From positions 1,750 through 65,749 of the forward strand of contig CAZYTL010000003.1 of assembly GCA_964650355.1 (NCBI GenBank): 64,000 nt of DNA. Direction: 5' to 3'. Shown here piece after piece: positions 23,888 through 63,647 of the stretch. The DNA comes from an uncultured Gammaproteobacteria bacterium. GTDB lineage: Bacteria > Patescibacteriota > Microgenomatia > CAYXHB01 > CAZYTL01. Below the pieces are notes generated by a model. It saw only the letters and a list, made by a program, of their open reading frames with translations. It made no database searches and had not been told where the DNA came from. Positions within the stretch are counted from its first letter, which is position 1. Each line of letters starts with the position of its first letter. The translations under genes were made by a program, and so were the position numbers.

Positions 23888-24907
23888 CTACCCGCTCTTT
23901 CCTCCCCACCTATATCCTCTTCCCCTGCAACTCTCAATCAGTTCATCCGCAAAACCCTGACTCTGCAACTTCCTTCTCAATCTTTGTACCAACTTTCTCA
24001 TAGCCCACAAAGAAAATTTCTCTGGCTCATCAGGCCACAAATTATCCCCCATCGTCTCCCAAGCCACTACCCTTCCCCTATTCTCTACCAAGCATTTCAA
24101 CAACCAATACTCGCTTTTAGTCAAACCTTTGATCATTCGCTCATTCACCCAAATATCATCCTCCTTAATCTCTGCTTTCAACCCAGCTAATATCCCCAAC
24201 TTGCACATATAATCGTTTGCCTTATCAATCCACTGTTGGTCCACCGCTGTCTTTAGTCCTCTCGTCGTCCCCACAAAGCCAGGAAACAACTTCGACAATC
24301 CACCATATCTAAAAAGTAAATCTACAAATACCTCACTCTCTTCCCAGGAATAACCTTCCACTCTCACCGAATTCATCACCAACGCCGACAACACCCCATG
24401 CGCCAACCTATCTACGCTTATATCTTGTCTCCACCAAACTGCCAAATTCAAAACTCTCTCATTCATATCGCCCATAGAATAACTTACGCCTGATCCATAC
24501 TCGGTTGGCTTAATCAATAACTTTACCTCTTTATCAACCATCTCAGGAAATACGCTTCCCACATTCTTCCAAAAATCATCCTCAACCGTCTCCCATTTTT
24601 CCCTCAAAGTTTCTACATCCATCTGCCTTTCCTTCACCAAACCATTAATCCTTTTCGCAAGCTCATCTTCTCTCCAAATTAGCGACCCGTAATCTGTCTT
24701 TGCCACCTGACCCCAAAACCCTTTCTCTACTTCATCATAGTTCCAGTCAGGCAAATAAACCGCCTTCCAAACGTTCCCCACTACCTCTGGTAACACCAAA
24801 AACCCGTGCTTAAAATAAAACAAATTCGCCGTCTTTGCCGCAGTGTTCACGACCCGACAAGCCTCAGTTTCCCGAGAATATTCCCAATTAGTAGTTACTT
24901 TCATCAC
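23888..24907 (-). CDS. Protein with C-terminal OmpR/PhoB-type winged-helix DNA-binding domain (Trans_reg_C-like), N-terminal domain unknown
   Basis: C-terminal WAMRKLVQRLRRKL...CRGRGYRW matches the wHTH recognition-helix and wing pattern. Confidence 0.6.
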   Translation of the reverse strand: MMKVTTNWEYSRETEACRVVNTAAKTANLFYFKHGFLVLPEVVGNVWKAVYLPDWNYDEVEKGFWGQVAKTDYGSLIWREDELAKRINGLVKERQMDVETLREKWETVEDDFWKNVGSVFPEMVDKEVKLLIKPTEYGSGVSYSMGDMNERVLNLAVWWRQDISVDRLAHGVLSALVMNSVRVEGYSWEESEVFVDLLFRYGGLSKLFPGFVGTTRGLKTAVDQQWIDKANDYMCKLGILAGLKAEIKEDDIWVNERMIKGLTKSEYWLLKCLVENRGRVVAWETMGDNLWPDEPEKFSLWAMRKLVQRLRRKLQSQGFADELIESCRGRGYRWGGKSG

Positions 24908-24987
24908 TCATATTCTACCGCAACTTCGCAAATGTCCCCCAAAAGTCACGCACAGTTAGTTCTTCAAAAACTATAATCTATTAAACG

Positions 24988-25392
24988 ATGCCTATAAACC
25001 TAAAACAGCCAACCCCAGAAACAATTATGCCCCTTTCAGTAGCTAAAAGCATCGCCAGAAGAGCTGCGCAATATAGAATTCCACCCATTTCCCAGACTTT
25101 TATTGATCAAGACAACTGGGCATCTAGTGGAGGAATCTTTATTACCGGGGCAGAAATCCTTAACCGTCATGATCCCACTTGGCACGCGAGAAACGATATT
25201 CATCCATCCAAACTATACGAATACACTGAGTACCTCCACCCAGATGGTCCCTGGTTCCAAGCTTGGTGTACAAAAACCGTAAGAGCACCCCTGAAAAGTA
25301 CCATGGAAAGAGTGACAAGAGCATACCTTACAATAAAAACGCGGAGTGAAACCCTACCTCCGGAAATTATCTCTAGTCTTTTTCCAATGTAA
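24988..25392 (+). CDS. Hypothetical protein
   Basis: 134-aa ORF. No motif. Confidence 0.4.
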   Translation: MPINLKQPTPETIMPLSVAKSIARRAAQYRIPPISQTFIDQDNWASSGGIFITGAEILNRHDPTWHARNDIHPSKLYEYTEYLHPDGPWFQAWCTKTVRAPLKSTMERVTRAYLTIKTRSETLPPEIISSLFPM

Positions 25393-25428: not shown

Positions 25429-26994
25429 CTACCTGCACGTCCAATGATCCGGCACGTAAGCACACCACCAATATTTCAGTGTGGGTGTCGGAGTCGGCTC
25501 TGTCCCTGGCGTTGGCGTCGCTGTTGGAGAAACAGGTGTAGGAGTTAACGTCGGAGTCTGAGTCGGTGTTGGAGGAATCGGTATCGGCGTATCCGTAGGC
25601 GATACCGGGGTAGGCGTACTTGTTGGCTCTATCGGTGTCGGTGTCTGAGTCGGTGTACTCGTCGGTGGCACCGGAGTTAACGTTGGAGTCATTGTGACTG
25701 TCGGAGTTGCCGTCGGCGTCATCGTCGGTAAACCTCCACCACCTACGGCACCACAATCTACTGCCGCACATGCGTCAATCCTCCCAAAACTCCAATAACT
25801 TCCAGTTCCGGGGATCTTTTCCGCAGTTGATTCAATCTGCTGCCTTACCTGTTGATTACTCCACGCCAGATGCTCCCCCTTTACCAACCCTGCTAAGCCC
25901 GCCACCCAGGGACTAGCCATCGACGTCCCTGACAGACTTATATATCCTCCGTTATTATAAGTAGATAAAATCGCCACTCCCGGCGCCGCCACGTCTACCC
26001 AACTTCCGTAAGTCGACCAACTCGGCCTAGTATCATTTTCGTCTATCGCCCCCACCGCGATCACGTCAGAATAGTAAGCAGGATATACCGGATAACTTCT
26101 TCCATTATTCCCTGCCGCAGCCACCACCACTACTCCCCTGTTCCATGCATCCTCAATCGCTCTTTGCAACGTCCTTGACGGATAAGATCCGCCCAAACTC
26201 AAATTAATCACCTCTGCCCCGTTATCCACTGCCCAGGTGACTCCGTCCGCCACCCAAGAATAATATCCGCTTCCGTCATCATCCAACACCTTCACCGAAA
26301 ACAATCTCCCTTCATAGGCCATCCCCGCCACCCCCTTGCCATTATTAGTCATTGCTCCTGCAATTCCTGCCACATGCGTCCCGTGCCCGTTACCGTCATC
26401 GTCACCGTCGGTAGTAAAATTCGCCCTTTTAACCACCTTACTAGCCAAATCCTCATGACCCCTGTCAATTCCTGTATCCACAATCGCGATGTCTACCTGG
26501 CTTGAACCATGAGTCGCACTCCAGGCTCCGAAGGCCTTCACCTTATCTAATCCCCATTGACTACCAACTAAAGAATCATTAGGCACCTCTAACGCTTCTG
26601 CCACGTAATCCGGCTCCGCATACTCCACCCATAAACTCCTTCCCAATTCATCAGCCATCATTCTCGCCTCCGTACTTCCACTCCCCTTAATTTTCCCTCG
26701 AATCACCAAAGTATCCGCCATTTCCATCTTCTGCTCCTTCACCACCTCGATATTCCTTAACACCACCTTCTTGACCCATTCCGGCGTCCATCTTCTCCAC
26801 TTCACAATCACCCGTTCACTCTCACTCCCGGCTACCGCAACCCCCTGCCCTCCCACTTCAGCCTTCACTCCCCCATACCACCAGCCACTCATTGCCACTA
26901 ATAAACCGACTATCACTACTACCGCGAATCTGATCCTCGCCTTTCCCATATATCGATTATCCCTCACCATACTACCTTTTCCTTCCTCAGTCAA
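25429..26994 (-). CDS. Subtilisin-like serine protease (S8) with C-terminal Pro/Thr-rich linker and Cys-containing tail
   Basis: Catalytic triad contexts VDTGIDRGHEDL, HGTHVAGIAG and GTSMASPWVAGLAG. N-terminal signal/anchor. C-terminal (TPTx)n then KYWWCAYVPDHWTCR. Confidence 0.85.
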   Translation of the reverse strand: MTEEGKGSMVRDNRYMGKARIRFAVVVIVGLLVAMSGWWYGGVKAEVGGQGVAVAGSESERVIVKWRRWTPEWVKKVVLRNIEVVKEQKMEMADTLVIRGKIKGSGSTEARMMADELGRSLWVEYAEPDYVAEALEVPNDSLVGSQWGLDKVKAFGAWSATHGSSQVDIAIVDTGIDRGHEDLASKVVKRANFTTDGDDDGNGHGTHVAGIAGAMTNNGKGVAGMAYEGRLFSVKVLDDDGSGYYSWVADGVTWAVDNGAEVINLSLGGSYPSRTLQRAIEDAWNRGVVVVAAAGNNGRSYPVYPAYYSDVIAVGAIDENDTRPSWSTYGSWVDVAAPGVAILSTYNNGGYISLSGTSMASPWVAGLAGLVKGEHLAWSNQQVRQQIESTAEKIPGTGSYWSFGRIDACAAVDCGAVGGGGLPTMTPTATPTVTMTPTLTPVPPTSTPTQTPTPIEPTSTPTPVSPTDTPIPIPPTPTQTPTLTPTPVSPTATPTPGTEPTPTPTLKYWWCAYVPDHWTCR

Positions 26995-33594: not shown

Positions 33595-34761
33595 TTATTT
33601 TTGATTTTTGCTATTTGATATTTCTAATAGGTATCCTCTTCCTCTTACTGTCCTCAAGTCATACCCGCTTCCCAGTAACTTCTTCCTCAAACGTGAAATC
33701 GCCTGATCCACGGCCTCTTCCGACACTCCTTCAGGATTGTCCCCTGGCCAACCCGCTTCCACCAACTCTTCCCTCTCGCATACTCCCCCTGCCCTATCCT
33801 TTAAACACTTCCACAACCGATACTCAATCTGTGTCAACCTGTTCTCAACCTTAGCCTCTCCGATCTGAGCCTCGCTCGTCTCCTTTCCCTCGCCCTCTGT
33901 CCACGTCTCAGCTCTATCTCTGACAAACCTCTCCACCGCCTCTGACCCAATCACACATTTTTGTTCTCCATTTGACAAAGCTGATAAACTCCTCAGATCA
34001 GCTTTGTCATCCTGAGCGCTCCTAAAACGATGTGACGTTTTAGGGCGTCGAAGGATCTCCTTTACTACTCCCCACCCCCACAACCCCTTATTCATCACCT
34101 CAACACCATCCCTGACGAACTCCACCAACTGCTTTCGTTGTTCTTCGTTCAACCCCCGCCAAATCATCTTCAACATTCCTCTTAGCCTGGCAGAACTTTC
34201 CACCTCCTCCCTGCCTTCCACCAACCATGACTTAACCAATCCCGGAATTCCTCCTGAAAACAAATAAATCTCTTCCCTTTCCTCCTTATTCACCTTCATT
34301 CCTAACCTCCTGGCCACGTTATCAATCACCGCATCTGTTTCTTCTCTCCTACATACCGGAAAATATAACTTTGATTCTGTCACCAACTCATAAAAATTTC
34401 CCATCCTCTCCGCTTCCCGGCTCAAATCACACCTCGTACTCGTCACCACCAAATAAGTCACATGATACTTCCGTTCATCCCTGATCGCCCGCAAATGATT
34501 AAACACCTTCGGTTCAGCCATCTTTAATAACGATTCAAAATGATCTATCACCACCGTCGTTGGTTTCTTCCTGTCAACCTCGCTCATTTCCAGTAATTTA
34601 AACGGCACCAGATTTGCATCCCGCTTCACCAACTTCCTCCCCTTGATCTCTAATTCTCTAATCATCCGGGTCATCCCCCACCCCGGCAAACCGCATAAAC
34701 GCACTGATAACCCGGCATCTAATTTCTCCACCACTGACTTCATTACTTGGCTTCTAGACAT
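33595..34761 (-). CDS. Degenerate P-loop NTPase-like N-domain + C-terminal OmpR-type wHTH (paralog family with 23888 and 43461)
   Basis: LCGLPGWGMTRM (Walker-A-like), VVIDHFE (Walker-B-like) and C-terminal ISRLRKKL...VRGRGYLL. Carries palindromic element copy C in-frame. Confidence 0.6.
   Translation of the reverse strand: MSRSQVMKSVVEKLDAGLSVRLCGLPGWGMTRMIRELEIKGRKLVKRDANLVPFKLLEMSEVDRKKPTTVVIDHFESLLKMAEPKVFNHLRAIRDERKYHVTYLVVTSTRCDLSREAERMGNFYELVTESKLYFPVCRREETDAVIDNVARRLGMKVNKEEREEIYLFSGGIPGLVKSWLVEGREEVESSARLRGMLKMIWRGLNEEQRKQLVEFVRDGVEVMNKGLWGWGVVKEILRRPKTSHRFRSAQDDKADLRSLSALSNGEQKCVIGSEAVERFVRDRAETWTEGEGKETSEAQIGEAKVENRLTQIEYRLWKCLKDRAGGVCEREELVEAGWPGDNPEGVSEEAVDQAISRLRKKLLGSGYDLRTVRGRGYLLEISNSKNQK
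33972..34058. repeat. Double-hairpin palindromic element copy C (in-frame in the 33595..34761 gene, translated as ILRRPKTSHRFRSAQDDKADLRSLSALSN)
   Basis: Hairpin 1 gacaaagctgat/atcagctttgtc, hairpin 2 cctaaaacg-atgtga-cgttttagg. Stem changes relative to copies A and B are compensatory. Confidence 0.8.
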
Positions 34762-34907
34762 CCCCTATATTATAAAACTTCCCCACAATTTTGTCAGCTT
34801 CTTGTCAGGCAAACTTGACTCATAGGTTATACTATATATGCCAAGGATTCACCCCAACTACCCGGCCATTAGTGCGGCCGGGATGTCTGTGGTGACTTCT
34901 TTTTAAA

Positions 34908-35324
34908 AAGAGGAGAAACCGGAAATCAAATATCAAACCAAAGGAGGCCCAAATGGCCAAGAGATTGACAGTCCTCGTCATCGTGGCCATCGTATCCTTG
35001 ATGGCCGCAGTCCCCGCATTTGCTCAAGGCCCCACTACTACGTGGAGGACCGCAGGCACCACACAACGGTGCGTCGGGTCGTGGTGTGTGACGCACCACG
35101 AATGGGAGAACATGGGAGGCCCGGGACCCAACCGATGGGTGGACACCACCGTCGACACCCCATACGGCAGCCGCAGCTTCAGCAGAGGGCTGCCCAACGA
35201 GCCATCCGCCCCTCCGGGGCAACTGGAGATTAACATCCAATACAATTTGCACAGCAGAGAGGGCAACCCCGGAATCACCATCCGGGGACCCCGGCAGTAA
35301 GAGGAGTCACCCGGTTTCTCCTCT
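34908..35324. other. GC-rich (~60% GC) cassette bounded by 13-bp perfect inverted repeats GAGGAGAAACCGG / CCGGTTTCTCCTC
   Basis: Base composition and codon usage differ sharply from the flanks and show no C>G skew. A hairpin cccggcc-attagtgc-ggccggg sits at 34861-34882 just outside. Confidence 0.5.
34953..35300 (+). CDS. Small secreted protein (signal peptide, two Cys), GC-rich codon usage
   Basis: Strong SD aaaggagg 6 nt upstream. MAKRLTVLVIVAIVSLMAAVPAFA|QG signal peptide. Mature region CVGSWCVTHHEW. Confidence 0.55.
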   Translation: MAKRLTVLVIVAIVSLMAAVPAFAQGPTTTWRTAGTTQRCVGSWCVTHHEWENMGGPGPNRWVDTTVDTPYGSRSFSRGLPNEPSAPPGQLEINIQYNLHSREGNPGITIRGPRQ

Positions 35325-35438
35325 CCTCTATCACCCGCCCATTTTAGTCCCCTCTTTTGTCATCCAATTGTTAACTTCCCGTCCAGCAAAGATCTACCTC
35401 TTCCCATTACACTAAAAGTAATTTTTCTTCTCGAGTCC

Positions 35439-35936
35439 ATGCCTCCCAACACTAATTCTCCACCAGCCTCAATCTCATCCCTTACCCAACTTCAACACCG
35501 ACTTCAAGACCTCAAATTTCAAAAACGGCCCCAACTCTTAACCCTCCTTGCTCAAAACCGACATCAAAGAAATATCAACCATATCACCGACCACGTCACC
35601 TTGGCCACCGAACTTGAACTCCTTGATTACCGCATCTCCCAGCTCGAAGCCCTCCTCTCTCGCGCGTCTCTTTCAGCCCTTTCCACCGAACTCCCCCACG
35701 CTAACCAAGTCGATCTCGGCTCCACCGTCATCCTCCAATCAATCTCTACCCAACACCAACGCACCGTCCACCTCGTTCCCGACTGGGAAATCAACCCCGC
35801 TCAAGGCAAAATCTCCTTATCTTCCCCTCTGGGACAATCTCTCCTAGGTAAACAAGTCAATCACCTTATCCAGGTGTCCACCCCCTCAGGCCAAATCCAA
35901 TATCAAATCATCCAAATTTCTCAGACATTTCCCTAA
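35439..35936 (+). CDS. greA: Transcription elongation factor GreA
   Basis: C-terminal ISLSSPLGQSLLGKQVNHLIQVSTPSGQIQYQIIQI matches the GreA/B FKBP-like domain signature, preceded by a coiled-coil N-domain. Confidence 0.8.
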   Translation: MPPNTNSPPASISSLTQLQHRLQDLKFQKRPQLLTLLAQNRHQRNINHITDHVTLATELELLDYRISQLEALLSRASLSALSTELPHANQVDLGSTVILQSISTQHQRTVHLVPDWEINPAQGKISLSSPLGQSLLGKQVNHLIQVSTPSGQIQYQIIQISQTFP

Positions 35937-37237: not shown

Positions 37238-37364
37238 AGTCCAATTTTACACTAAATCCAAATCATACGAATTCCAACTAGACCCTTCTCACCTTTTCTT
37301 CACCAACTCCCCCTTGCCTTCCCATATTTTTAAAATATAAACTTAAATTAAGCAAACGCCTTTC

Positions 37365-37483: not shown

Positions 37484-40400
37484 ATGCCCTCAGAATTCTC
37501 GACCCTCACCGATCTTGCCCTCAGCCATGGTATTAAACATTCTGAACTCATTGATCAGATCCACGAAGCCATCCTGGTAGAATTTCTCAAAAAATACCCC
37601 GAACAAGCCAAAAACGCTTCCGTATTAGTCGACGCTCAAACCGGTAAAGCCACCATCTTATCTAATAAAAAAGACATCACCCCGCCTGAATTTGCTCCTC
37701 ATGCAGAAAGTATCGCCCGCCAAGTCATCCTCAGTCACCTGAAAAAAGCCGACACCTCTCCTCCTCCACCGCCAGCCGAAAAAATCGCTCCCCAGCCTCG
37801 CATCCTCTCTCAGCATCCCGACTCTCATCCCGGCAAGTCCGTCTCTTCCTGGCTCGCCCGACTTATTTTCTGGGGCTACAATGGTTTCTTCCTCTTTATG
37901 CTCTTCATCTTTATTTGGGGCCTCTTCACCAAAGACCTCCGCACCAGCTTTTTAGACCAACTCCAGCAAATCAGCCTTTACCAAAGTCTCCTCCTCCTCG
38001 TCCTCGTCGCTACCCCCGCAACCAGCATCTATCTGGCCCTCAAAAACCACCTTTCCCGTCAACCACACCAGCTCGCCCAGCTATTTTTCTTCCTCGAAGT
38101 TCCCCTCATCGGTCTCACCTTCATCTTTCTCTCCTTTGATCAAGCCATTCCCATCATCAAACTCTTTGCCCTGCTCGCCCTTCTCATCCCCATTTTATTC
38201 TTCGGCTACGTCAAACAAATCAAAGTCGACAATCTCCCCAAAACCTATCTTCTCACCGCCATCATCCAAATCTTACTTCTCATTGTTGGCTACTTCACCC
38301 TCCTTTATTCTTTCTTCTCCCCCATTTTCTTAGGCTACCTCGCCAAATCTATCTTTTCAGGCATCGTTTCCGACTTTACGGATTATATCTTTACCAACTT
38401 CGTTAGCATCTCCACCCTTTGGGAAATCCTCTATTTCCTCATCATCATTTCTCTCGCCATTTTTGGCCTCATTATTGTTACCCTCCTCATCTTCCTTCCC
38501 TACCTCCTCACTTATCTGTTTGCCAAAATGTTTCTCCAATACCGCACCCGGCTTCTGAAATATGTAGACGAACAACGCACCTCCGTCTTTATTGGCCTTA
38601 CCACCTTGGCCATGCTCATCCTTACCATCGGTCTTTCTTACCAAGCAGACATCAGTCCCTATCTCAGCCAGCTTGAACAACTCTCCACCGCCACCACCTT
38701 CGAGGACAAACTCCACATCGCCCAACAACTCCAGCCTCATCAGTCTGCAATTAAACAAACCCTCCAGGACATGAACAACTATGGCCGACGTTATCCTTTT
38801 CATAAAAACGACCGCTATCTGGCTAATGCTTACCAATCCGTTTTTCGTCTTGACCAAACCACCGCCAACCACCTCCAAAGCCTCTTTCACACCCTCGCCT
38901 ATCCCTTTGTCTACTGGGGACCTACCGATAGCTACCAACTCCGCCAAAATTTCACCTACCTCTTCGGCAATCCCGACGCCCCCACTCCCAGTCAACCTAA
39001 ACCCAATGTTGAGCTAGTATCCAGAGACGTCCAGGCCCAAACCGCTTATCAAGATCAACTCGCTACCATCACCGTTACCGAAGAATACACTAATAAAACC
39101 TACCAACAACAACAAGTCATCTACGAATTCTCTCTCCCCAACTCAGCCGTCATCACCGATCTCCGACTCGGTCCTAACCTGGAATTTCCCGGCGTCATCG
39201 CCCCCAAAGGCGCTGCCAGTGCCACCTATGAACGCGAACTTCAACGCCGCCGCGATCCTGCATTACTGGAACAAGTCGGCCCTCGTCAATACCGCCTCCG
39301 CGTCTTCCCCATCCCTGCCAAAAACGACCGCACCACCCTCCAGGGAAAAAACCAAAAAGTCCAGTTCACCTACATAGTTAACGCTACCTCACAGGGCTAC
39401 ACCTTACCCAACTACTCCAAGACTCAAAACATCAATCCCGATCCTGCCGACTACACCGTCAGCCTAAACCACCAATCCGTCAGTGCCTTCATCTCAGATG
39501 CCTACATCCGTGATCCCCAAACCAATGGTCCATCCACCGATCCTTGCCAGGTCACCCAAACCCAAACCACCAAAACCCTTCTCGAAAACATCTCCGTTTC
39601 CTTAGTCCCCCATTCTTCTCAATCCCAATTAACCAACAACTTTGACTGTCAAGAAGATGAAGCACTCAAATTCCCATCATTGCTCACCAATCAACGTATC
39701 GCCCTTCTCTACGATGTCTCCCGTGGTAACAAAAACGCTGAAGAGTACGAATTATTCTTTAAAGCTCTTGATGCTCACACCCAACTCCTCACCCAGAACA
39801 CTTTTGATCTCTATCTCTTCAACGATCAACTTAGTCAACCAATTAAGCTCACTAACTCCAATCTCACTACCACCACCAGTGGCCCTAACCTCGTCTACTT
39901 TGGTACTAGTGATCTCAACAAAGCCTTAAAAGAATTCTCAGGTGTTTACGATCTGGCTATTATCATCACCAATCAAACGACAGCTTTTGCCAACTTAAAT
40001 CTCCCCTCCCAGTTCAACTTCCCCATCTATCTCATCCACACCGACATTATTCCTCCCTACAACCAAACGTTTACTAACTACCTCATCCAACACCAGGGCT
40101 ATGTCGCCAATAATCTGTCTGATGCTCTCGACCACTTCGTCCTCACCCAAAACCTCCAACCTTCAAACACCCAAGTCTTGACCGTCTCCCCTTACTGGAG
40201 CCTCACCGTTCCCGCCAATTCTTTACCAGCCATCACTAAATTACCAGAATTTACCATCACCCAAACTCCCCTTCCCTCTCCCACACCTCGAATAAACAAT
40301 AACCTAGTCTGCGGTACCTACTTCCGTCGCAAAACCTCCAATACCATGGTCCAGGGAAACTGGACAGATGACCCCCAATACACCATTTCCAAACAAAAAT

Positions 40401-41191
40401 GTCAGGAATATATGCAAACTAAATTCCTCAACAAACTCTATTGTGATATGTACGATGCCTCCGTGGTATCAGTTTATCTATTAAACAAAAATCGCTACAC
40501 TAGTACCTTCCCCGCTAATGGCTTTAGTGATAATGAATTTGTCTACAGCCAAGAATGCTTAACCGCCCCCTTAACTACCCCCACCCCGACCCTCACTCCA
40601 GCTACTCCTAAAACTCCTCCCGTTGACTCTTTAGCAGCCATCTTCAACCGTGCCTATCTCTCCGACCAAATCTCCCAATATCAAGGCGATCTTACCAAAA
40701 ACCTCGCTTTCTTAGATGCCACCAATAATTTCGCCCTCCAAGCCAATCTGGTCACCCCTTACTCTTCCCTCCTTGCCCTCGTTAACGAAACCCAAAGAAA
40801 CTGGCTGCAAAGAGAATCCCAATCCTACAATCGCTATGAAGAACAACCTCCTCAGCCCACCCCAGTCCCCATCTTTAGAGAATTCGAATCATCTGATGTC
40901 TTCTCTCCCTCTATCGGTATCGGCAATTCACTCTTTGGTACTAGCATGAAATCAGCTCCCGCCCCCCTGATGATGGGTGGCGGCGGTGGTGAATTCGGCG
41001 GCGTCAGCGGCGGCGGATTGGAAATTCCCACCACTACCGTTCAAGCCTTTTCCATCACCAGTGTGGGTGAGTTCATGGGCGGCCTCTTCATTGCCGTTAA
41101 CGTCCTCCTCCTCGGCGGCGGCTTCCTGGTCTATCTCATCATCCACCTTAAAAACCGCAAAAAAACAACCGCCATCAAACAAAATAAGTAA
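37484..41191 (+). CDS. Giant membrane/surface protein: cytoplasmic N-terminus, about 9-10 TM helices, ~750-aa extracytoplasmic domain, PT-rich linker, Gly-rich region and C-terminal TM anchor with basic tail
   Basis: Topology read from hydrophobicity. The C-terminal EIPTTTVQAFSITSVGEFMGGLFIAVNVLLLGGGFLVYLIIHLKNRKK resembles sorting-signal architecture and matches the pilin-like protein module. Confidence 0.7.
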   Translation: MPSEFSTLTDLALSHGIKHSELIDQIHEAILVEFLKKYPEQAKNASVLVDAQTGKATILSNKKDITPPEFAPHAESIARQVILSHLKKADTSPPPPPAEKIAPQPRILSQHPDSHPGKSVSSWLARLIFWGYNGFFLFMLFIFIWGLFTKDLRTSFLDQLQQISLYQSLLLLVLVATPATSIYLALKNHLSRQPHQLAQLFFFLEVPLIGLTFIFLSFDQAIPIIKLFALLALLIPILFFGYVKQIKVDNLPKTYLLTAIIQILLLIVGYFTLLYSFFSPIFLGYLAKSIFSGIVSDFTDYIFTNFVSISTLWEILYFLIIISLAIFGLIIVTLLIFLPYLLTYLFAKMFLQYRTRLLKYVDEQRTSVFIGLTTLAMLILTIGLSYQADISPYLSQLEQLSTATTFEDKLHIAQQLQPHQSAIKQTLQDMNNYGRRYPFHKNDRYLANAYQSVFRLDQTTANHLQSLFHTLAYPFVYWGPTDSYQLRQNFTYLFGNPDAPTPSQPKPNVELVSRDVQAQTAYQDQLATITVTEEYTNKTYQQQQVIYEFSLPNSAVITDLRLGPNLEFPGVIAPKGAASATYERELQRRRDPALLEQVGPRQYRLRVFPIPAKNDRTTLQGKNQKVQFTYIVNATSQGYTLPNYSKTQNINPDPADYTVSLNHQSVSAFISDAYIRDPQTNGPSTDPCQVTQTQTTKTLLENISVSLVPHSSQSQLTNNFDCQEDEALKFPSLLTNQRIALLYDVSRGNKNAEEYELFFKALDAHTQLLTQNTFDLYLFNDQLSQPIKLTNSNLTTTTSGPNLVYFGTSDLNKALKEFSGVYDLAIIITNQTTAFANLNLPSQFNFPIYLIHTDIIPPYNQTFTNYLIQHQGYVANNLSDALDHFVLTQNLQPSNTQVLTVSPYWSLTVPANSLPAITKLPEFTITQTPLPSPTPRINNNLVCGTYFRRKTSNTMVQGNWTDDPQYTISKQKCQEYMQTKFLNKLYCDMYDASVVSVYLLNKNRYTSTFPANGFSDNEFVYSQECLTAPLTTPTPTLTPATPKTPPVDSLAAIFNRAYLSDQISQYQGDLTKNLAFLDATNNFALQANLVTPYSSLLALVNETQRNWLQRESQSYNRYEEQPPQPTPVPIFREFESSDVFSPSIGIGNSLFGTSMKSAPAPLMMGGGGGEFGGVSGGGLEIPTTTVQAFSITSVGEFMGGLFIAVNVLLLGGGFLVYLIIHLKNRKKTTAIKQNK

Positions 41192-43460: not shown

Positions 43461-44501
43461 TTAGTGATTAACTTTCAACCGATACCCCTTTCCCTTTACA
43501 TTCTCCAGCTCAAACCTCCCTTTCAGCTTCCTCCGCAACCGCGACATCTGCTTATACAACGCCCATAAAGAAAACTTCTCCTCGCTCATCTCCAACATAT
43601 CCGCCAACTTATCCACCGACAATACCTTTCCTTGATTCTCTTCCAACCAGGTAAAAATCCTCTCTTCGGTTCTAGTTAAATTTCCATACATCTGTTCCGC
43701 TATCTTACTCCTGTATCTTTGAACAAAATAATCTCTCAACAACCCAGATCGAATCCGATTATCCTCATCAACCAACTTCAAATCCTGCAACTGTTTAGTA
43801 CTTAATTGTACTATCAACTTTGTCAAATAATTCAACTGAAACAAAATCCCTGAATTTGATTGAAAACCCTCCAAATCGTCCAGCTTCATCTGTCTCTCTG
43901 CCATATTCTTAGGAATCCGCTTCAGTAATCTCCCAATTCCACCGGACAATTCATAAATCCGCTCATAATCCTTCTCTGCTATCGGCCATCCATAATAATC
44001 ATTCGTCACCCTCAACATCGTAAATGCTGCATGTTTATCAAACGGGTCAATCCTAAAACCCGCATTCACGAAAATCCTTGAATGGGCAAAATACCATTCA
44101 GGATGAATAATTCCGGTATGATCAGTGGAAATCAAAAACACTAATTTCTCAGGGTGTGGTTGTCGCAACTCACTTAAGGCCTCTGCGAGATCACTCTTAT
44201 TAGGCACATTTTCAAACCATCTAATTACCACTAAAATTCGTTCGTTTTCAGATTCCAAGGCTAATTTGATCCTCTCAACAATATCCGTGTCTTTACCTCC
44301 ATTGAAAAACAACACCTGATCAAAGACTTCGTCTTCCTCAAACAAGCGCAACAAAAAATTAATTGCTGTATTCAAACCGCATCCCCCTACGGCTGAAATT
44401 GACACATTCTCTCCCTTCAACAACTTCTCACTCACCTTAATATACAGATTATTAAAATAATCTCTTGGCAAACACTGATAGTAAGTTTTATTCATGTCCA
44501 A
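43461..44501 (-). CDS. Degenerate NTPase-like N-domain + C-terminal OmpR-type wHTH (third paralog)
   Basis: SISAVGGCGLNTAINFLL (P-loop-like) and C-terminal LWALYKQMSRLRRKL...VKGKGYRL. Confidence 0.6.
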   Translation of the reverse strand: MDMNKTYYQCLPRDYFNNLYIKVSEKLLKGENVSISAVGGCGLNTAINFLLRLFEEDEVFDQVLFFNGGKDTDIVERIKLALESENERILVVIRWFENVPNKSDLAEALSELRQPHPEKLVFLISTDHTGIIHPEWYFAHSRIFVNAGFRIDPFDKHAAFTMLRVTNDYYGWPIAEKDYERIYELSGGIGRLLKRIPKNMAERQMKLDDLEGFQSNSGILFQLNYLTKLIVQLSTKQLQDLKLVDEDNRIRSGLLRDYFVQRYRSKIAEQMYGNLTRTEERIFTWLEENQGKVLSVDKLADMLEMSEEKFSLWALYKQMSRLRRKLKGRFELENVKGKGYRLKVNH

Positions 44502-44608: not shown

Positions 44609-45550
44609 ATGCCAGGCAAGTACCATCAAGAATCATTATCACTAGACAGACTACTTCTCCATTTAAAAAGAACTAAACCATCATCACCCGAGGTCATAAC
44701 TAGTGAAAAAATCATCTCCCTGATATTTAACCACGCTCAACTATTTGACACTAACTTTCAAAGAGTCAAGGGCGCACGCTTAGTTCAGTTGCTATTAAAA
44801 GAATATCAACAATCTCCTCATGAACAAACTGGACAATTCAAAAGACCTGAACCTGCCCGTTTTCGCCCCCTTAGTCCCTTGACCATTACCGACTTTACCC
44901 ATTTGTCATTAAGCGGCCAAGAATCGCTACAGGATTATCGCAGCGATGATCAGTTTGTCTACGAACAACAAGGACACCCAGGCGTGCTTCATATTAGAGA
45001 CTATCTCAACTATTACTACATTCGACTAATTCCCAAAGGTTGGTCGACTGGCATCACCCCATTAGCCCTATTTACTACTCCAGATGGAATCATCCCCGCA
45101 GCCTGTCTCCAACTAGACCTGGAAATATCACCAGACAATTGGAAGGACGTAAGAGAAGCAATCACTGGTAGAACAAAAGTAGATAGCCATCGTCGTTTTC
45201 CATTCCATCTAGGACACTCATTATCGTCAGGCACTTTTATTGCCAGTTCACCCACAGGCACTCACTTTCATAGCCATATTTATTACCCTTGTACTCCAGA
45301 TAGCCAATTAACAATTGCCAGCCAAATAGGAACTGCCTTGTTAATGAATAAAGAGCACCAACCTCCAATAGTAGACCCTAGACAACTCGGCCACACACTC
45401 AGAAGCTTACCCAATCGAGTAGCCTATGGATATAACTTCACTCTCCCGCCTGACCCAGAACTAAACTGCCTAAGAATTGTTGCCAGCCAGTTAAAACCCT
45501 ATTGTCCGTATCCATTAGCAACAATTAGTTCCAGAAATTTTATTCATTAA
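44609..45550 (+). CDS. Hypothetical protein
   Basis: 313-aa ORF. No motif. Confidence 0.45.
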   Translation: MPGKYHQESLSLDRLLLHLKRTKPSSPEVITSEKIISLIFNHAQLFDTNFQRVKGARLVQLLLKEYQQSPHEQTGQFKRPEPARFRPLSPLTITDFTHLSLSGQESLQDYRSDDQFVYEQQGHPGVLHIRDYLNYYYIRLIPKGWSTGITPLALFTTPDGIIPAACLQLDLEISPDNWKDVREAITGRTKVDSHRRFPFHLGHSLSSGTFIASSPTGTHFHSHIYYPCTPDSQLTIASQIGTALLMNKEHQPPIVDPRQLGHTLRSLPNRVAYGYNFTLPPDPELNCLRIVASQLKPYCPYPLATISSRNFIH

Positions 45551-45573: not shown

Positions 45574-46275
45574 ATGCCCACCCAAGAGAGATTTCCGGCT
45601 ACAGTATCCGTCGCTCTGCTTCTCACTCACGGTAGAAGTAAACGGCTATTACTCACCAGGCAGAAATCAGATCAAGAACAATGGGGACTAATCGCAGGTG
45701 GAGTCCAACAGGGAGAAACTGCATGGAATGCTATTGTCCGTGAAACTTGGGAGGAAGCTAGAATTAAAGAACAAAATATCATTTTCGTCACCGGATGGAA
45801 CAGCCTTGAACCTCACGTAGCGCTAATTAGAGGCCAGGATAAAATCCGCCTAGGCTTAGTCTTCGATTCCACCTACAGCGGCCCCCGTATATCTTTGGAA
45901 GGATGGGAAATATCAGATGATCCCAAGGTAGACCGGGTAAAATTCTTCCGCTGGCAAGAGATTCTCCACCTACTTGAAGATCAATCAAGAATTTACCGGC
46001 CTGAATTTAACTATCCTCAACTCCTCAGATGGCTATTAAAAGATCTTGGCCATAACCCCCATAGAACAATTACAGTCGACCAGTGGTTGCAAACCAATTT
46101 TCAAACCATCCCCGGACTGCAGCCCAAAACAGACAGCCCGAATAGTCAGCCATTCAAGTTAGCTGACCGCTGGGAATACTACTCTCCCTATAACCAGTGG
46201 ATGAAAACACCCGGAATCCATGGACAGGCTACCCGAACCAACTTTGCTAGACCAAGGTGGAAACCTAAACCTTAA
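45574..46275 (+). CDS. NUDIX hydrolase
   Basis: Nudix box GGVQQGETAWNAIVRETWEEARI. Confidence 0.7.
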   Translation: MPTQERFPATVSVALLLTHGRSKRLLLTRQKSDQEQWGLIAGGVQQGETAWNAIVRETWEEARIKEQNIIFVTGWNSLEPHVALIRGQDKIRLGLVFDSTYSGPRISLEGWEISDDPKVDRVKFFRWQEILHLLEDQSRIYRPEFNYPQLLRWLLKDLGHNPHRTITVDQWLQTNFQTIPGLQPKTDSPNSQPFKLADRWEYYSPYNQWMKTPGIHGQATRTNFARPRWKPKP

Positions 46276-55620: not shown

Positions 55621-55741
55621 ATCTGCATTATAACACCATCTCTACCCTTCCGCCTTATATTTCGGCCTTTTTCCCCCACCAGCTTCTCCACCTCCACCAA
55701 CATTTTGACATTCGTCTCCGTTTAAATAAAATAAGGCTAGT

Positions 55742-60432: not shown

Positions 60433-61110
60433 TTAAGAATTCACCTTTAGTCCCTCAATCCATCCGTGAATCCTCCGTAAAAAATCAGTACTCTTCCTCA
60501 CCTTAATCCTTAAGACCCCAAAATATTCCTCTGGGTGATCATAAGTCTTTTTCCACTTCACCTGCTGATAAAAGGGTTTCTGGAAGAAACGTTTGTCTAT
60601 TTTAGTAACTTTTGCCCAATATTCCTGAACATCATTAATCCTATACTCATGACTTATATTAAGCGTCACCCGTAAACTTATATCCCTCAAGTTTATTCCA
60701 CAACATTCAACTAACCATTTAATGAAAACTTTAACCATCGTCGGATCAGAATTAGCAAACCCTACCTGCTTGTCCTTTTTGAATCCCTCAGCCCAATAAA
60801 GAGCCACACCCACCAAAAACAACTCTCTTTTGGTTAACTTGCCTACTTCCTCCATCCCAGCTTTCATGAGTCTTTTTGCCCTCTCTTTTCGCTTCCTTTG
60901 CTGTTCCAGGGCATAAGACAATCTTCTACCATAATGAGGATCTTTAGCTCTTCTCTCTAACTCCCTAATCTGATCATCCGATAGCTTAATATCTTTACAC
61001 CAAGCACTAACTGAACCAGGAGAAACCTTTAATTTCTTAGCAATTACCTTTATGCTCTCGCCACCCTTGCGCATCTCTCTTGCCAATCTTCTTTCCTTTG
61101 TCTTGGCCAT
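60433..61110 (-). CDS. HTH-containing protein with degenerate LAGLIDADG-like core (possible free-standing homing-endonuclease-like or regulator)
   Basis: N-terminal ESIKVIAKKLKVSPGSVSAWCK (HTH). LFLVGVALYWAEGFKKDK resembles a LAGLIDADG helix with DGDG replaced by AEG. Confidence 0.35.
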   Translation of the reverse strand: MAKTKERRLAREMRKGGESIKVIAKKLKVSPGSVSAWCKDIKLSDDQIRELERRAKDPHYGRRLSYALEQQRKRKERAKRLMKAGMEEVGKLTKRELFLVGVALYWAEGFKKDKQVGFANSDPTMVKVFIKWLVECCGINLRDISLRVTLNISHEYRINDVQEYWAKVTKIDKRFFQKPFYQQVKWKKTYDHPEEYFGVLRIKVRKSTDFLRRIHGWIEGLKVNS

Positions 61111-61200
61111 TAAGATATATTATACAACAAGCCGGGGTTCAAATTAGTATTGACTTTCAAATAAGTTGAACGTAAAATAAACCTCAGTTTAACAAACACG

Positions 61201-61470
61201 TGCGGGGTAGTGTACGGCTGCACGGAGGGCTAGTAGTATGGGCCCCTTAGGGAGTAATCTCTATTGAATAACCTGGCTATATCGGTAGACAGCCCGATGG
61301 ACATCGGGCCAATATCCGAGGGAAGTCGACCTTATTATCTGGTTTGACCCCGTAGAGACTACACGCCGGGCCCCCGATAAACATCGGGGTGATGATATAG
61401 TCCGACACTCTGAGTAATCAGAGATTACAGATCAGCATAATCCTCCAGACCGGGTTCAACCCCCGGCCCC
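61201..61470 (+). ncRNA. ssrA: Structured RNA candidate with tRNA-like 3' domain (tmRNA-like): 5' tgcgggg pairs with 3' ccccgca; T-arm ccggg-TTCAACC-cccgg
   Basis: Acceptor/T-arm architecture parallels the E. coli tmRNA 3' end (gacgcgggttcaactcccgcc-acceptor). A gaataacctggct segment resembles taataacctgctt at the tag stop. Followed by an intrinsic terminator. No convincing tag ORF found. Confidence 0.35.
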
Positions 61471-61484
61471 GCAACATAAAAAGA

Positions 61485-61506
61485 CCGCCCATATGGCGGT
61501 TTTTTA
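61485..61506 (+). terminator. Rho-independent terminator-like hairpin accgcc-cata-ggcggt + T6 (alternatively an IS200 subterminal hairpin)
   Basis: Perfect 6-bp GC-rich stem followed by tttttt, flanked by an A-run. Confidence 0.5.
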
Positions 61507-61574
61507 ACTGAACATCTCCCCCAAGCTCACAAATTGGTAAATTTAGAGGTGTTCGCTAGGGGGGATCTTTTAAC

Positions 61575-61970
61575 TCAGAAATGATCCGTACGGTTAATAT
61601 AGTCTCGAACCAGTTGTTCGTTAAGTCCACCCACTGTTCGGGCATAATAACCCCGAGCCCAGAATGTCCCGTCTGGTAGCTCTCGTCGTAGCTCAGGAAA
61701 TTCTTTCAACAGTCCTTGGGCTACCTTACTCTTTAATACCTGTAAAACTTTTGAAACTGAAAGCTTTGGTGGTATCAATATCAGCATATGAACATGATCA
61801 ATGGCTACTTTAAGCGTGTCAAATTCGCACCCCAACTCCTGAGCTACTTGGATGAAGAGTGATTCCGCAACTGATGATCTTCGACCACTTAATATCCGTC
61901 TCCTACGTTTAGGGACAAATACAACGTGGTATGAAAAATCAAAGCTCGTATGAGCCGCTGTCCGTTTCAC
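61575..61970 (-). CDS. tnpA: IS200/IS605-family transposase TnpA (HUH Y1)
   Basis: HUH motif IDHVHMLILIPP, catalytic Tyr context RGYYARTVG, 131 aa. Confidence 0.85.
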   Translation of the reverse strand: MKRTAAHTSFDFSYHVVFVPKRRRRILSGRRSSVAESLFIQVAQELGCEFDTLKVAIDHVHMLILIPPKLSVSKVLQVLKSKVAQGLLKEFPELRRELPDGTFWARGYYARTVGGLNEQLVRDYINRTDHF

Positions 61971-62065
61971 TCCTCTATCATATCAGCTATTCGGCCCATG
62001 CGTTTTCCTCACCACCTAGCTTGACTCCCGTCCTGCGCTGGGTGGATTGATAACTTTCAAAATAT

Positions 62066-62836: not shown

Positions 62837-62841
62837 CCAGC

Positions 62842-63570: not shown

Positions 63571-63647
63571 GCCAGGGTAGCTCAGTTGGTTAGAGCATCG
63601 GATTCATAAACCGAAGGTCGTGGGTTCAAATCCCACCCCTGGTACCA
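63571..63647 (+). tRNA. tRNA-Met (anticodon CAT), elongator/Ile2-lysidine type, CCA encoded
   Basis: Cloverleaf: acceptor gccaggg/ccctggt, D-arm gctc-agttggtta-gagc, anticodon loop ttCATaa, T-arm gtggg-ttcaaat-cccac, then acca. The anticodon stem lacks the initiator 3xGC signature. Confidence 0.85.

What the first reader, a model, noticed from the sequence alone, without database searches (positions are those of the whole stretch)
34861..35330. GC-rich mini-cassette bounded by 13-bp perfect inverted repeats encoding a small secreted Cys-containing peptide
The IRs are GAGGAGAAACCGG (34910-34922) and CCGGTTTCTCCTC (35311-35323). Everything between them is about 60% GC with GC3-rich codons and no strand skew, unlike the C-rich, AT3-rich surroundings. 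A strong SD precedes the start. The product has a clear signal peptide and CVGSWCVTHHEW. This looks like a recent horizontally acquired, possibly MITE-like gene cassette. The product could be a bacteriocin, RiPP-like peptide or effector.
Basis: seen in the sequence. Interest (0 to 1): 0.6.

Follow-up and report, generated by a model that had tools for sequence, protein, structure and literature searches.

The report
Foreign orphan secreted-protein gene islet
A 0.45-kb stretch of compositionally foreign DNA, carrying one orphan gene for a small secreted protein and bracketed by a perfect 14-bp inverted repeat, sits between two conserved genes of a candidate-phyla-radiation bacterium whose genome otherwise has an extreme strand bias; it looks like an ordinary recent gene acquisition, not a demonstrated mobile element.

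Summary
A perfect 14-nt inverted repeat (34909-34922 / 35311-35324) brackets a Shine-Dalgarno site plus a 115-codon ORF (34953-35300). A skew-free, GC-rich island (34864-35306) lies in a genome whose GC skew is about -0.45 across all 64 kb. That background skew is a published trait of UBA1400 Microgenomates (PMC7143001).

The ORF is a genuine coding gene:
- GC3 periodicity has p = 0.0009.
- A textbook Sec signal peptide has a chance of about 6e-5.

It looks foreign. It has the highest GC3 of 63 ORFs, third-position skew equal to that of the IS200 transposase gene, and a strong SD in a genome where most genes look leaderless. It has no homolog among 15 billion proteins.

It is absent from the orthologous regulator-greA-recF locus in two relatives that share the skew. 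In one of them, regulator and greA are only about 76-100 bp apart, against 677 bp here.

The MITE-like reading is not supported. There is no target-site duplication, no second copy, no cognate transposase or recombinase, and the foreign composition starts 45 nt outside the left arm. If both arms are on one transcript, they form a -25 kcal/mol 5'UTR-3'UTR helix. That is my preferred but untested role. The product's function is unknown.

The parts
34864..35306 (+). Skew-free, GC-rich compositional island (GC 0.58, GC skew -0.01, against about -0.44 in the rest of the window)
   Evidence: Maximal-scoring-segment analysis; sliding profile
34792..34808 (.). Direct repeat TGTCAG-N5-TGTCAG (11-bp period), conserved upstream of the regulator ortholog in L004 and L005; probable operator of the winged-helix regulator. 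The first copy is the -35 (CTGACA) of the regulator's promoter. Native DNA, not part of the island.
   Evidence: three genomes, unique in the window; CTGACA-17-TATAAT on the - strand, 34797-34769
34861..34882 (+). GC-rich hairpin CCCGGCC-N8-GGCCGGG at the left edge of the island, outside the inverted repeat; possible 5'-terminal stem-loop of the transcript
   Evidence: pairing probability about 1.0
34898..34911 (.). Perfect 14-nt AT-rich palindrome TCTTTTTAAAAAGA overlapping the start of the 5' arm; part of an alternative local hairpin (34896-34915, -11.4 kcal/mol)
34909..34922 (+). 5' arm of the perfect 14-nt inverted repeat, AGAGGAGAAACCGG, in the 5' UTR 31 nt before the ATG; does not include the functional SD
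34941..34947 (+). Shine-Dalgarno AAGGAGG, 5 nt before the ATG; only 5 of 63 long ORFs in the window have any SD-like motif
34953..35300 (+). ORF115: orphan gene for a 115-aa precursor (stop TAA 35298-35300). GC3 0.74 is the highest of 63 ORFs; G3 is 0.28 against 0.06-0.10 in the typical, strongly skewed + strand genes.
   Evidence: periodicity p=0.0009; no homologs
34953..35024 (+). Sec-type signal peptide (24 aa: n-region MAKR, 16-residue hydrophobic core, c-region PAFA, predicted cleavage AFA|QG)
   Evidence: Sequence; occurs in 12/200000 residue shuffles and 2/100000 random ORFs
35079..35101 (+). 10-bp hairpin UCGUGGUGUGU-G-ACGCACCACGA inside the CDS; it encodes the SWCVTHHE part of the Cys motif
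   Evidence: (I7)
35300..35311 (+). Purine arm AGAGGAGTCACC just after the stop. It is a direct repeat (11/13) of the 5' arm region (34908-34920) and can pair locally with the 3' arm (-10.3 kcal/mol).
   Evidence: (D6, I6)
35311..35324 (+). 3' arm of the inverted repeat, CCGGTTTCTCCTCT, starting 11 nt after the stop codon
33595..34761 (-). Flanking native gene: STAND-like NTPase plus OmpR/PhoB-type winged-helix regulator, divergent from ORF115; orthologs in L004 (38%) and L005 (48%)
35439..35936 (+). Flanking native gene: greA, fully skewed (G3 0.06); in L004 it is the direct divergent neighbour of the regulator

Best explanation
The segment 34861-35324 is a lineage-specific, recently acquired single-gene islet. 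It was inserted into the short divergent intergenic region between a conserved STAND/winged-helix regulator gene and greA, in a UBA1400-type Microgenomates genome. The host genome is under an extreme strand-specific mutation pressure that has driven G out of the + strand everywhere. The islet has not yet been reshaped by it, so it stands out as a skew-free, GC3-rich block. It carries its own ribosome-binding site and encodes an orphan precursor of 115 aa. That precursor is exported by Sec and cleaved after AFA, giving a ~91-aa Gly/Pro/Thr-rich protein. The protein has a predicted small beta-meander whose first turn is flanked by the two cysteines (C-x4-C), and a disordered tail. Transcription most likely starts in the native AT-rich region next to the conserved TGTCAG-N5-TGTCAG operator, so the newcomer is probably under the neighbouring regulator's control. 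The 14-nt inverted repeat is best read as an RNA feature of this transcript. The 5' UTR arm and the 3' UTR arm pair into a -25 kcal/mol helix that closes the whole SD+ORF into a loop. That helix would protect or define the mRNA ends, or give an RNase III-type processing site. The repeat is not best read as transposon termini. Shown: island, coding signal, orphan status, absence in relatives, thermodynamics of the helix. Inferred: horizontal origin, promoter and regulation, role of the helix, secretion and fold of the product.
For: Background skew: C 21146 vs G 8154 across the window, regardless of gene strand. This trait is published for Ch65, Collierbacteria and Beckwithbacteria (PMC7143001). 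Island 34864-35306. Coding: GC3 excess p=0.0009 and signal-peptide pattern 6e-5 / 2e-5. Foreignness: highest GC3 of 63 ORFs; third-position skew -0.23, identical to the IS200 transposase gene (PF01797); SD present whereas 58/63 ORFs lack one and mostly have a TATAAT-like box 6-10 nt before the start. Orphan: only itself in 5.8 billion clustered proteins and in an exhaustive phmmer of 1.84 billion representatives, where the single other hit (E=2e-4) covers mainly the signal peptide; no Pfam, PHROG, NCBIfam, PADLOC, PDB or Foldseek match. Comparative: two relatives with the same extreme skew keep the regulator and recF. L004 has regulator and greA divergent with only about 76-100 bp between them; L005 has other small weak-skew ORFs there; tblastn finds no ORF115 in either. 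Conserved operator-like repeat next to the regulator in all three. RNA: + strand fold z=-5.2 with the stem; duplex -25.2 kcal/mol; pair probability 0.9-1.0 for all 14 pairs, out-competing both local hairpins.
Against: The relatives are distant (RecF 56-61% identical), so absence there dates the gain only loosely and does not exclude loss in both. No donor can be named because the protein has no homolog at all; a fast-evolving or de novo gene cannot be excluded on that ground. No promoter or terminator matching the sigma-70 or intrinsic-terminator consensus was found for ORF115, so it is not shown that both arms lie on one transcript. The helix does not include the SD, and against synonymous-codon shuffles the CDS is only marginally more structured than expected (z=-1.6), so selection for RNA structure is not demonstrated. 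Window-wide, a 14-nt repeat arises by chance in about 8% of shuffles. The only other public sighting (L001) is 100% identical, so there is no independent evidence on conservation of the arms.
Confidence: 0.55

Rival explanations
1. One reading: a non-autonomous mobile element (MITE or mobile insertion cassette) whose 13-14-bp terminal inverted repeats are recognised in trans by a transposase and which carries the secreted-protein gene as a passenger.
For: Perfect 14-nt terminal-type repeat exactly enclosing SD+ORF. Foreign composition. Absent from the orthologous site in relatives. The arms share a CCGG core, so an empty site could read as a 24-nt perfect palindrome with CCGG as a 4-bp duplication (sequence inspection).
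Against: No direct repeat flanks the arms. No other copy of either arm in 64 kb, even with 2 mismatches. The empty-site palindrome and the same-size IR architecture have zero hits in the metagenome and viral collections. No transposase with matching ends: the only one in the window is an IS200/IS605 Y1 enzyme, which does not use terminal inverted repeats (own knowledge), and its ends are unrelated. Foreign composition starts at 34864, 45 nt outside the left arm. Other skew-free islands in the window have no bracketing repeats.
Confidence: 0.12
2. An invertible segment (inverton). A site-specific recombinase flips the 416-bp segment between the repeats, switching the secreted protein on and off. 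Time spent in both orientations would also cancel the strand-specific mutation pressure and erase the skew inside the repeat.
For: A single-copy perfect repeat pair without target duplications, about 400 bp apart, with the likely promoter outside and SD+ORF inside, and a secreted product. All of this is typical of phase-variable loci (own knowledge of fimS, hin and Bacteroides invertons). The right edge of the island coincides with the repeat.
Against: No tyrosine or serine recombinase among the ORFs annotated within about +-13 kb. Both independent assemblies show one orientation. Flipping predicts G3 = C3 of about 0.27 and unchanged total GC3 of about 0.55, whereas the ORF has C3 0.46, G3 0.28 and T3 0.07. 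The island extends 45 nt beyond the left arm.
Confidence: 0.08
3. Not a protein gene, or not only one: a structured non-coding RNA of about 450 nt with a closing processing stem, which resists the skew because paired positions need both G and C, as the tRNA and the group I intron in this window do.
For: Folding much more stable than dinucleotide shuffles: z=-5.2 with the stem and z=-3.6 without it. A control skew-free coding island gives z=+1.2. A closing helix resembles rRNA-type processing stems (own knowledge).
Against: No Rfam family, even at E<=10. Against synonymous-codon shuffles the excess structure nearly vanishes (z=-1.6). Strong independent coding signals: SD, signal peptide, codon periodicity. 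No homologs, so no covariation support is possible.
Confidence: 0.05
4. A native, old gene whose unusual composition is kept by selection on the protein or on expression, with the inverted repeat a chance match.
For: A 14-nt repeat occurs somewhere in 8% of shuffled windows. The pyrimidine arm is ordinary sequence for this C/T-rich strand. No donor lineage can be identified.
Against: Third codon positions, which are least constrained by the protein, are the most deviant (G3 0.28 vs 0.06, T3 0.07 vs about 0.22). The non-coding 5' part of the island is also G-rich. The gene is missing from the orthologous locus in two relatives. The translation-initiation mode differs from the genome's norm. The repeat's exact bracketing of SD and stop codon is an additional coincidence.
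Confidence: 0.12

Closest known systems
Compositionally atypical horizontally acquired ORFan genes or genomic islets (comparable to phage 'morons': single self-contained genes of deviant composition inserted between conserved neighbours)
   Same: One small gene with deviant GC, codon usage and translation signals, sitting between two conserved syntenic genes and absent from relatives; no homologs.
   Different: Not inside a recognisable prophage; no own consensus promoter or terminator detected; bracketed by a perfect inverted repeat, which morons or islets need not have.
MITEs and mobile insertion cassettes (MICs; e.g. MIC231 of Bacillus cereus, own knowledge)
   Same: Short, non-autonomous, delimited by terminal inverted repeats; MICs carry passenger genes.
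   Different: No target-site duplication, single copy, no cognate transposase, composition boundary does not match the left repeat.
5'UTR-3'UTR pairing within one mRNA (icaR of Staphylococcus aureus) and RNase III processing stems that flank rRNAs (own knowledge)
   Same: Long-range complementarity between sequences just upstream and just downstream of the functional RNA, giving a stable closing helix (-25 kcal/mol); the 3' arm is anti-SD-like (CUCCUCU).
   Different: In icaR the 3' UTR masks the real SD. Here the paired 5' arm is an SD-like GAGGAG 19 nt upstream of the real SD, which stays largely accessible. No experimental evidence for transcript ends or cleavage.
Invertons (fimS, hin/gin, Bacteroides invertible promoters; own knowledge)
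   Same: Single pair of short perfect inverted repeats a few hundred bp apart, no target duplication, control of a secreted or surface product.
   Different: No recombinase nearby, one orientation only in the available assemblies, codon composition not explained by flipping.
Integron gene cassettes
   Same: Single promoterless-looking ORF followed by an imperfect palindrome (35300-35324).
   Different: No integrase, no cassette array, palindrome only about 25 nt, and no RYYYAAC/GTTRRRY core sites (sequence inspection; annotation).
Sec-dependent class II bacteriocins with an N-terminal C-x4-C disulfide (pediocin-like; own knowledge)
   Same: Signal-peptide-led small secreted product with C-x4-C-V near the mature N-terminus.
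   Different: No YGNGV box, mature part about 91 aa rather than about 40, only weakly basic (pI about 8), no immunity or transporter gene adjacent, no family hit.

Membership tests
MITE / mobile insertion cassette | Terminal inverted repeats at both ends | tested here: met
   14-nt perfect repeat 34909-34922 / 35311-35324
MITE / mobile insertion cassette | Target-site duplication directly flanking the repeats | tested here: not met
   Flanks ...ttttaaaa| and |cctctatc share nothing. Only an internal CCGG core is shared by the arms.
MITE / mobile insertion cassette | Multiple copies, or a related autonomous element whose transposase has matching ends | tested here: not met
   No further copy in 64 kb with <=2 mismatches. 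The same-size IR architecture was absent from metagenome and viral contigs. The only transposase gene is IS200-type with unrelated ends. The rest of the genome was not available.
MITE / mobile insertion cassette | Empty-site allele whose junction coincides with the repeat ends | tested here: inconclusive
   L004 lacks the whole segment, but it is too diverged to align the junctions. The exact empty-site palindrome was not found in public collections. The composition boundary lies 45 nt outside the left arm.
Horizontally acquired gene islet | Composition and codon usage deviating from the host genome | tested here: met
   Highest GC3 of 63 ORFs, skew3 -0.23 vs a typical -0.6 to -0.8, island score 26.9
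Horizontally acquired gene islet | Absence from the orthologous locus of related genomes | tested here: met
   Regulator, greA and recF orthologs present in L004, and regulator and recF in L005; no ORF115 by tblastn. The relatives are distant (RecF 56-61%).
Horizontally acquired gene islet | Identifiable donor lineage or homologs elsewhere | tested here: not met
   No homolog in 5.8 billion clusters, 1.84 billion representatives, or the viral contigs
Inverton | Inverted repeats flanking the segment | tested here: met
Inverton | Site-specific recombinase (invertase) encoded nearby | tested here: not met
   None among the ORFs annotated within about +-13 kb; the rest of the genome is unavailable
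Inverton | Both orientations present in a population | not testable with these tools
   Needs read mapping of SRR14802573. The two assemblies available are identical and in one orientation.
Integron gene cassette | attC site with R''/R' core sites (RYYYAAC...GTTRRRY), adjacent integrase or cassette array | tested here: not met
   No such cores in 35295-35330; no integrase
Known structured RNA family (Rfam) | Match to a covariance model | tested here: not met
   No hit at gathering threshold. The best permissive hits, E 0.065-9.5, are far below their gathering scores.
Class IIa (pediocin-like) bacteriocin | YGNGV-x-C-x4-C-x-V box in a ~40-aa cationic mature peptide, with an immunity gene | tested here: not met
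   Only C-x4-C-V is present. The mature part is ~91 aa with pI about 8. No Pfam or NCBIfam hit.
Sec-secreted protein | N-terminal n-h-c signal peptide with an A-x-A cleavage site | tested here: met
   MAKR / LTVLVIVAIVSLMAAV / PAFA|QG; rule-based test positive, chance 6e-5. No dedicated predictor such as SignalP was available.

The most novel reading that the evidence does not exclude
The repeat-bounded 416-bp unit is a new kind of minimal gene-mobility or gene-switching device in CPR bacteria. One version is a cassette that integrates into the CCGG centre of a palindromic hairpin, splitting it into the two arms seen today. The other is an invertible single-gene cassette whose flipping both phase-varies a secreted host-interaction protein and shields it from the genome's extreme strand-specific mutation pressure.
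Probability: 0.1. Interest if true: 0.65.

Novelty: new member of a known kind. Interest (0 to 1): 0.3.

Why it matters
In itself this is one more orphan, probably horizontally acquired, small secreted-protein gene, which is common in bacterial genomes. Its value lies in the context. In UBA1400-type Microgenomates the strand-specific mutation pressure is so strong that every recent acquisition shows up as a skew-free island, which gives an unusually clean read-out of gene flux in an uncultivated, probably symbiotic lineage. The regulator-greA-recF interval appears to be a turnover hotspot, since it holds different small weak-skew genes in each of three genomes. The newcomer here has landed next to a conserved operator, which suggests how new secreted factors get wired into existing regulation. 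If the inverted repeat turned out to be a recombination or inversion site, it would define a very small mobile or switchable unit in CPR genomes. Nothing here shows that.

Tried and rejected
**Searches that found nothing**
- Rfam found nothing in the island at gathering threshold, or at E<=10 with permissive filters. ARAGORN found no tRNA or tmRNA there.
- Homolog searches for ORF115 found only itself, plus a signal-peptide-level hit: the word-indexed search, exhaustive phmmer, viral contigs, and Pfam, PHROGs, NCBIfam, PADLOC and PDB sequences.
- The single-sequence AF2 model was weak (pLDDT 58), and Foldseek against the PDB gave only E>=0.27. No fold assignment is made.
- The empty-site palindrome AGAGGAGAAACCGGTTTCTCCTCT and the same-spacing IR architecture had zero hits in the metagenome and viral collections.

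**Searches for relatives**
- Exact look-ups and the homolog search with greA found only the same strain.
- The regulator's exact sequence is not on record.
- The genome-contig scan with RecF gave one 49% relative with normal skew and no synteny.
- Attempts to extend beyond the window on the same contig failed.

**Hypotheses tested and rejected**
- A link to the IS200/IS605 transposase in the window is rejected: unrelated end hairpins.
- Shared cassette architecture is rejected. Other skew-free islands in the window, and the small ORFs of L004 and L005, have no comparable bracketing repeats. A weak 21-nt, 76% pair in L005 shares an AGAGGAGA core, but in the opposite arrangement and at chance level.
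- Selection for mRNA structure is not supported: synonymous shuffles give z=-1.6.
- Bisulfite-type artefact as the cause of the skew is rejected, because A is about equal to T.

Full report
**1. What is in the sequence**

The window is 64 kb with 21146 C and only 8154 G on the + strand, while A is about equal to T. GC skew is about -0.45 in every kilobase, whichever strand the genes are on.
- Genes on the + strand have third positions of about 0.47 C and 0.06 G.
- Genes on the - strand show the mirror image.

The closest genome-collection hit for RecF is a Microgenomates MAG. A published complete genome of this group, Ca. Chazhemtobacterium Ch65, has exactly this whole-chromosome C-over-G disparity (29.8% C, 15.0% G), as do Collierbacteria and Beckwithbacteria (PMC7143001). 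The background is therefore a known, if remarkable, lineage trait. It is even stronger here (33.0% C, 12.7% G).

Against this background, a maximal-scoring-segment analysis finds a handful of skew-free islands.

**2. The inverted repeat**

The arms are AGAGGAGAAACCGG (34909-34922) and CCGGTTTCTCCTCT (35311-35324). They are 14 nt, perfect, and 388 nt apart, and no other copy exists in the window even with two mismatches.
- It is the longest inverted repeat with arms <=1 kb apart in the window.
- Composition-preserving block shuffles produce one somewhere in the window in 8% of trials, and in this 800-bp neighbourhood in 0.13%.
- The arms enclose the Shine-Dalgarno site and the whole ORF. The 3' arm starts 11 nt after the stop codon.
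- No direct repeat flanks the arms.
- The arms share a CCGG core, so joined they would form a perfect 24-nt palindrome.
- Each arm also has a weaker local partner (34896-34915 at -11.4 kcal/mol; 35300-35324 at -10.3 kcal/mol).
- The purine stretch after the stop (AAGAGGAGTCACC) is an 11/13 direct repeat of the 5' arm region (D6).

**3. Coding gene or structured RNA?**

The + strand RNA folds far better than dinucleotide shuffles: z=-5.2 with the closing stem and z=-3.6 without it. A control skew-free coding island gives z=+1.2. That raised the possibility of a structured RNA that resists the skew, as the tRNA and group I intron of this window do.

Several results speak against that reading:
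- Rfam has no match, even at E<=10.
- When the null model keeps the protein and the codon set (synonymous shuffles), the excess stability nearly disappears (z=-1.6, 16/300).

The coding signals, by contrast, are strong:
- GC by codon position is 0.54/0.56/0.74, permutation p=0.0009.
- AAGGAGG lies 5 nt before the first possible start. An in-frame TGA lies 20 codons upstream, with no start codon between it and the ATG.
- The N-terminus (MAKR, then a 16-residue hydrophobic core, then PAFA|QG) meets a rule-based signal-peptide test. Only 12 of 200000 residue shuffles and 2 of 100000 random ORFs of the same composition pass it.

I conclude that ORF115 is a real gene.

**4. Foreign or native?**

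Among 63 long ORFs in the window:
- ORF115 has the highest GC3 (0.74).
- Its third-position skew is -0.23. Typical values are -0.6 to -0.8, and the IS200-type transposase gene has the same -0.23.
- Only 5 of the 63 have any SD-like motif. Most have a TATAAT-like box 6-10 nt before the start codon, which suggests leaderless mRNAs. ORF115 has a strong SD and a 5' UTR of roughly 90 nt or more, so it also differs in how it is translated.

The protein has no homolog:
- It finds only itself (a 1516-bp Logan contig, 100% identical to the window) among 5.8 billion clusters.
- An exhaustive phmmer of 1.84 billion representatives gave one other hit (E=2e-4), which covers mainly the signal peptide.
- Family, defence-system, solved-structure and fold searches were all negative.

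**5. Comparative evidence**

greA has no close relative in the databases. RecF relatives at 55-61% identity exist, and two of their contigs carry the orthologous locus and the same extreme skew.
- **L004:** the order is recF, a 108-aa ORF, greA, then directly the STAND/Trans_reg_C regulator. The regulator is divergent from greA across only about 76-100 bp.
- **The window:** the same two start codons are 677 bp apart, with the island between them.
- **L005:** greA is missing, and the 1.7-kb recF-regulator interval holds three other small ORFs with weak skew.

Orthology is supported by full-length identities: regulator 38% and 48%, GreA 39%, RecF 56% and 61%. tblastn finds no trace of ORF115 in either relative.

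The interval is therefore a turnover spot, and ORF115 is lineage-specific. With its unameliorated composition, the parsimonious reading is a recent gain. The caveat is that the relatives are distant and no donor can be named.

**6. Regulation (inferred)**

All three genomes have a direct repeat [T/G]GTCAG-N5-TGTCAG (11-bp period) 21-45 nt upstream of the regulator's start codon.
- In the window it lies at 34792-34808, and it is the only such repeat in 64 kb.
- Its first copy is the -35 of a CTGACA-17-TATAAT promoter that ends 8 nt before the regulator's ATG.
- Direct repeats with an 11-bp period are the usual sites of OmpR/PhoB-type winged-helix domains (own knowledge).

So this is probably the regulator's operator, and whatever lies downstream of the divergent side (greA in L004, ORF115 here) is a candidate target. 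No consensus sigma-70 promoter or intrinsic terminator was detected for ORF115 itself.

**7. What the repeat does**

*Mobility* is not supported:
- There is no target duplication, no second copy, and no hits for the empty-site palindrome or the same-spacing architecture in metagenome and viral collections.
- There is no transposase with matching ends.
- The island starts 45 nt outside the left arm.
- The other skew-free islands lack such repeats.

*Inversion* is possible in principle but has no support:
- No recombinase lies within about +-13 kb.
- Flipping would predict C3 = G3 of about 0.27, not the observed 0.46/0.28.

*RNA pairing* is what the repeat would certainly do if both arms are transcribed together:
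- The duplex is worth -25.2 kcal/mol.
- All 14 pairs have probability 0.9-1.0 in the ensemble.
- The two local hairpins are fully out-competed, and the SD stays mostly accessible.

I therefore favour a 5'UTR-3'UTR closing helix that stabilises the mRNA ends or serves as a processing site. It is comparable to icaR-type UTR pairing or rRNA processing stems (own knowledge). This step is inferred, not shown, and chance (about 8% window-wide) is not excluded.

**8. The product**

After cleavage at AFA|Q the protein is about 91 aa, Gly/Pro/Thr-rich, with pI about 8.

The single-sequence AF2 model is of low overall confidence (pLDDT 58). It proposes four beta-strands (residues 31-78, pLDDT about 65-78), with C40 and C45 around the first turn and a disordered C-terminal third.

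No bacteriocin, RiPP or effector family could be matched. There is no YGNGV box, no leader-type precursor, and no neighbouring maturation, immunity or export genes. Its function is unknown. A secreted factor for interaction with a host or competitor is a guess based on the CPR lifestyle.

**9. Verdict**

It is a new member of a known kind, an orphan acquired gene islet, made conspicuous by a known but extreme genomic background.

Noticed in passing
window 1-64000: Whole window has GC skew of about -0.45 (C 33.0%, G 12.7%, A about equal to T), regardless of gene strand. That is stronger than the 29.8/15.0% published for Ca. Chazhemtobacterium Ch65 (PMC7143001). 45 of 63 long ORFs lie on the G-rich (-) strand. 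Protein composition is visibly bent by it: + strand genes are rich in P/T/S/L/Q/H, and - strand genes in G/E/R/V/K.
   Followed up: partly
window, upstream of most long ORFs (e.g. 34769-34774, 24914-24919, 37244-37250, 55627-55632): Most genes lack a Shine-Dalgarno motif (58 of 63) and instead have a TATAAT/TAGAAT-like box 6-10 nt before the start codon, suggesting widespread leaderless mRNAs in this genome.
   Followed up: partly
window 34792-34808; L004 about 2534-2550; L005 about 2913-2929: Direct repeat [T/G]GTCAG-N5-TGTCAG (11-bp period), conserved at the same distance upstream of the STAND/winged-helix regulator gene in three genomes and unique in the window. Likely the regulator's operator, overlapping its own -35.
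   Followed up: partly
window 23888-24907, 33595-34761, 43461-44501 (all - strand): Three regulators with a C-terminal Trans_reg_C domain. Each is divergent from + strand ORFs that are, or are followed by, weak-skew genes (24988-25392; ORF115; 44609-45550 followed by the NUDIX gene 45574-46275). This may mean that new genes accumulate next to these regulators.
   Followed up: partly
window 61100-62805: The largest skew-free island. It holds a group I intron (61222-61424, +, Rfam 56 bits), an IS200/IS605 Y1 transposase gene (61575-61970, -) with a canonical bidirectional terminator (61479-61505), and a 281-aa ORF (62066-62911, -). Which gene, if any, the intron interrupts was not determined. 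A tRNA-Met lies at 63571-63647.
   Followed up: partly
window 3602-4258, 24988-25392, 45574-46275: Other + strand ORFs with weak third-position skew (-0.24 to -0.31), possibly also recent acquisitions. None has bracketing inverted repeats. 45574-46275 is a NUDIX hydrolase; the other two have no family.
   Followed up: partly
window 25429-26994 (-), especially 25430-25730: The subtilisin-like protease gene ends in a long Pro/Thr-rich linker (TPTATPTVTMTPT...). Its C-rich codons on the - strand locally cancel the skew, giving an island of a different cause (low-complexity coding).
   Followed up: no
L005 1206-2528: In this relative greA is missing from the recF-regulator interval. Two of the small ORFs there (89 aa and 82 aa) start with similar sequences (MSPKVKIPEGEDY / MSPKIRLPETPDEY), suggesting a small paralogous family. 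The interval has a weaker skew and lower GC than its flanks.
   Followed up: no
window 34916-34934 vs L004 2514-2532: A 19-nt, 84% match (AAACCGGAAATCAAATATC / AAACCGTTAACCAAATATC) lies in the equivalent intergenic position and orientation. It is not significant on its own (E=2.5). If real, part of the 5' arm and the G-poor stretch after it would be native DNA, and the insertion history more complex.
   Followed up: no
window 34898-34911: Perfect 14-nt AT-rich palindrome TCTTTTTAAAAAGA overlapping the 5' arm of the inverted repeat. It could be a protein-binding site or simply the tip of the alternative 5' hairpin.
   Followed up: no
window 37484-41191 (+): A 1235-aa multi-pass membrane protein with a VIT domain and strongly skew-shaped composition; not examined further.
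   Followed up: no
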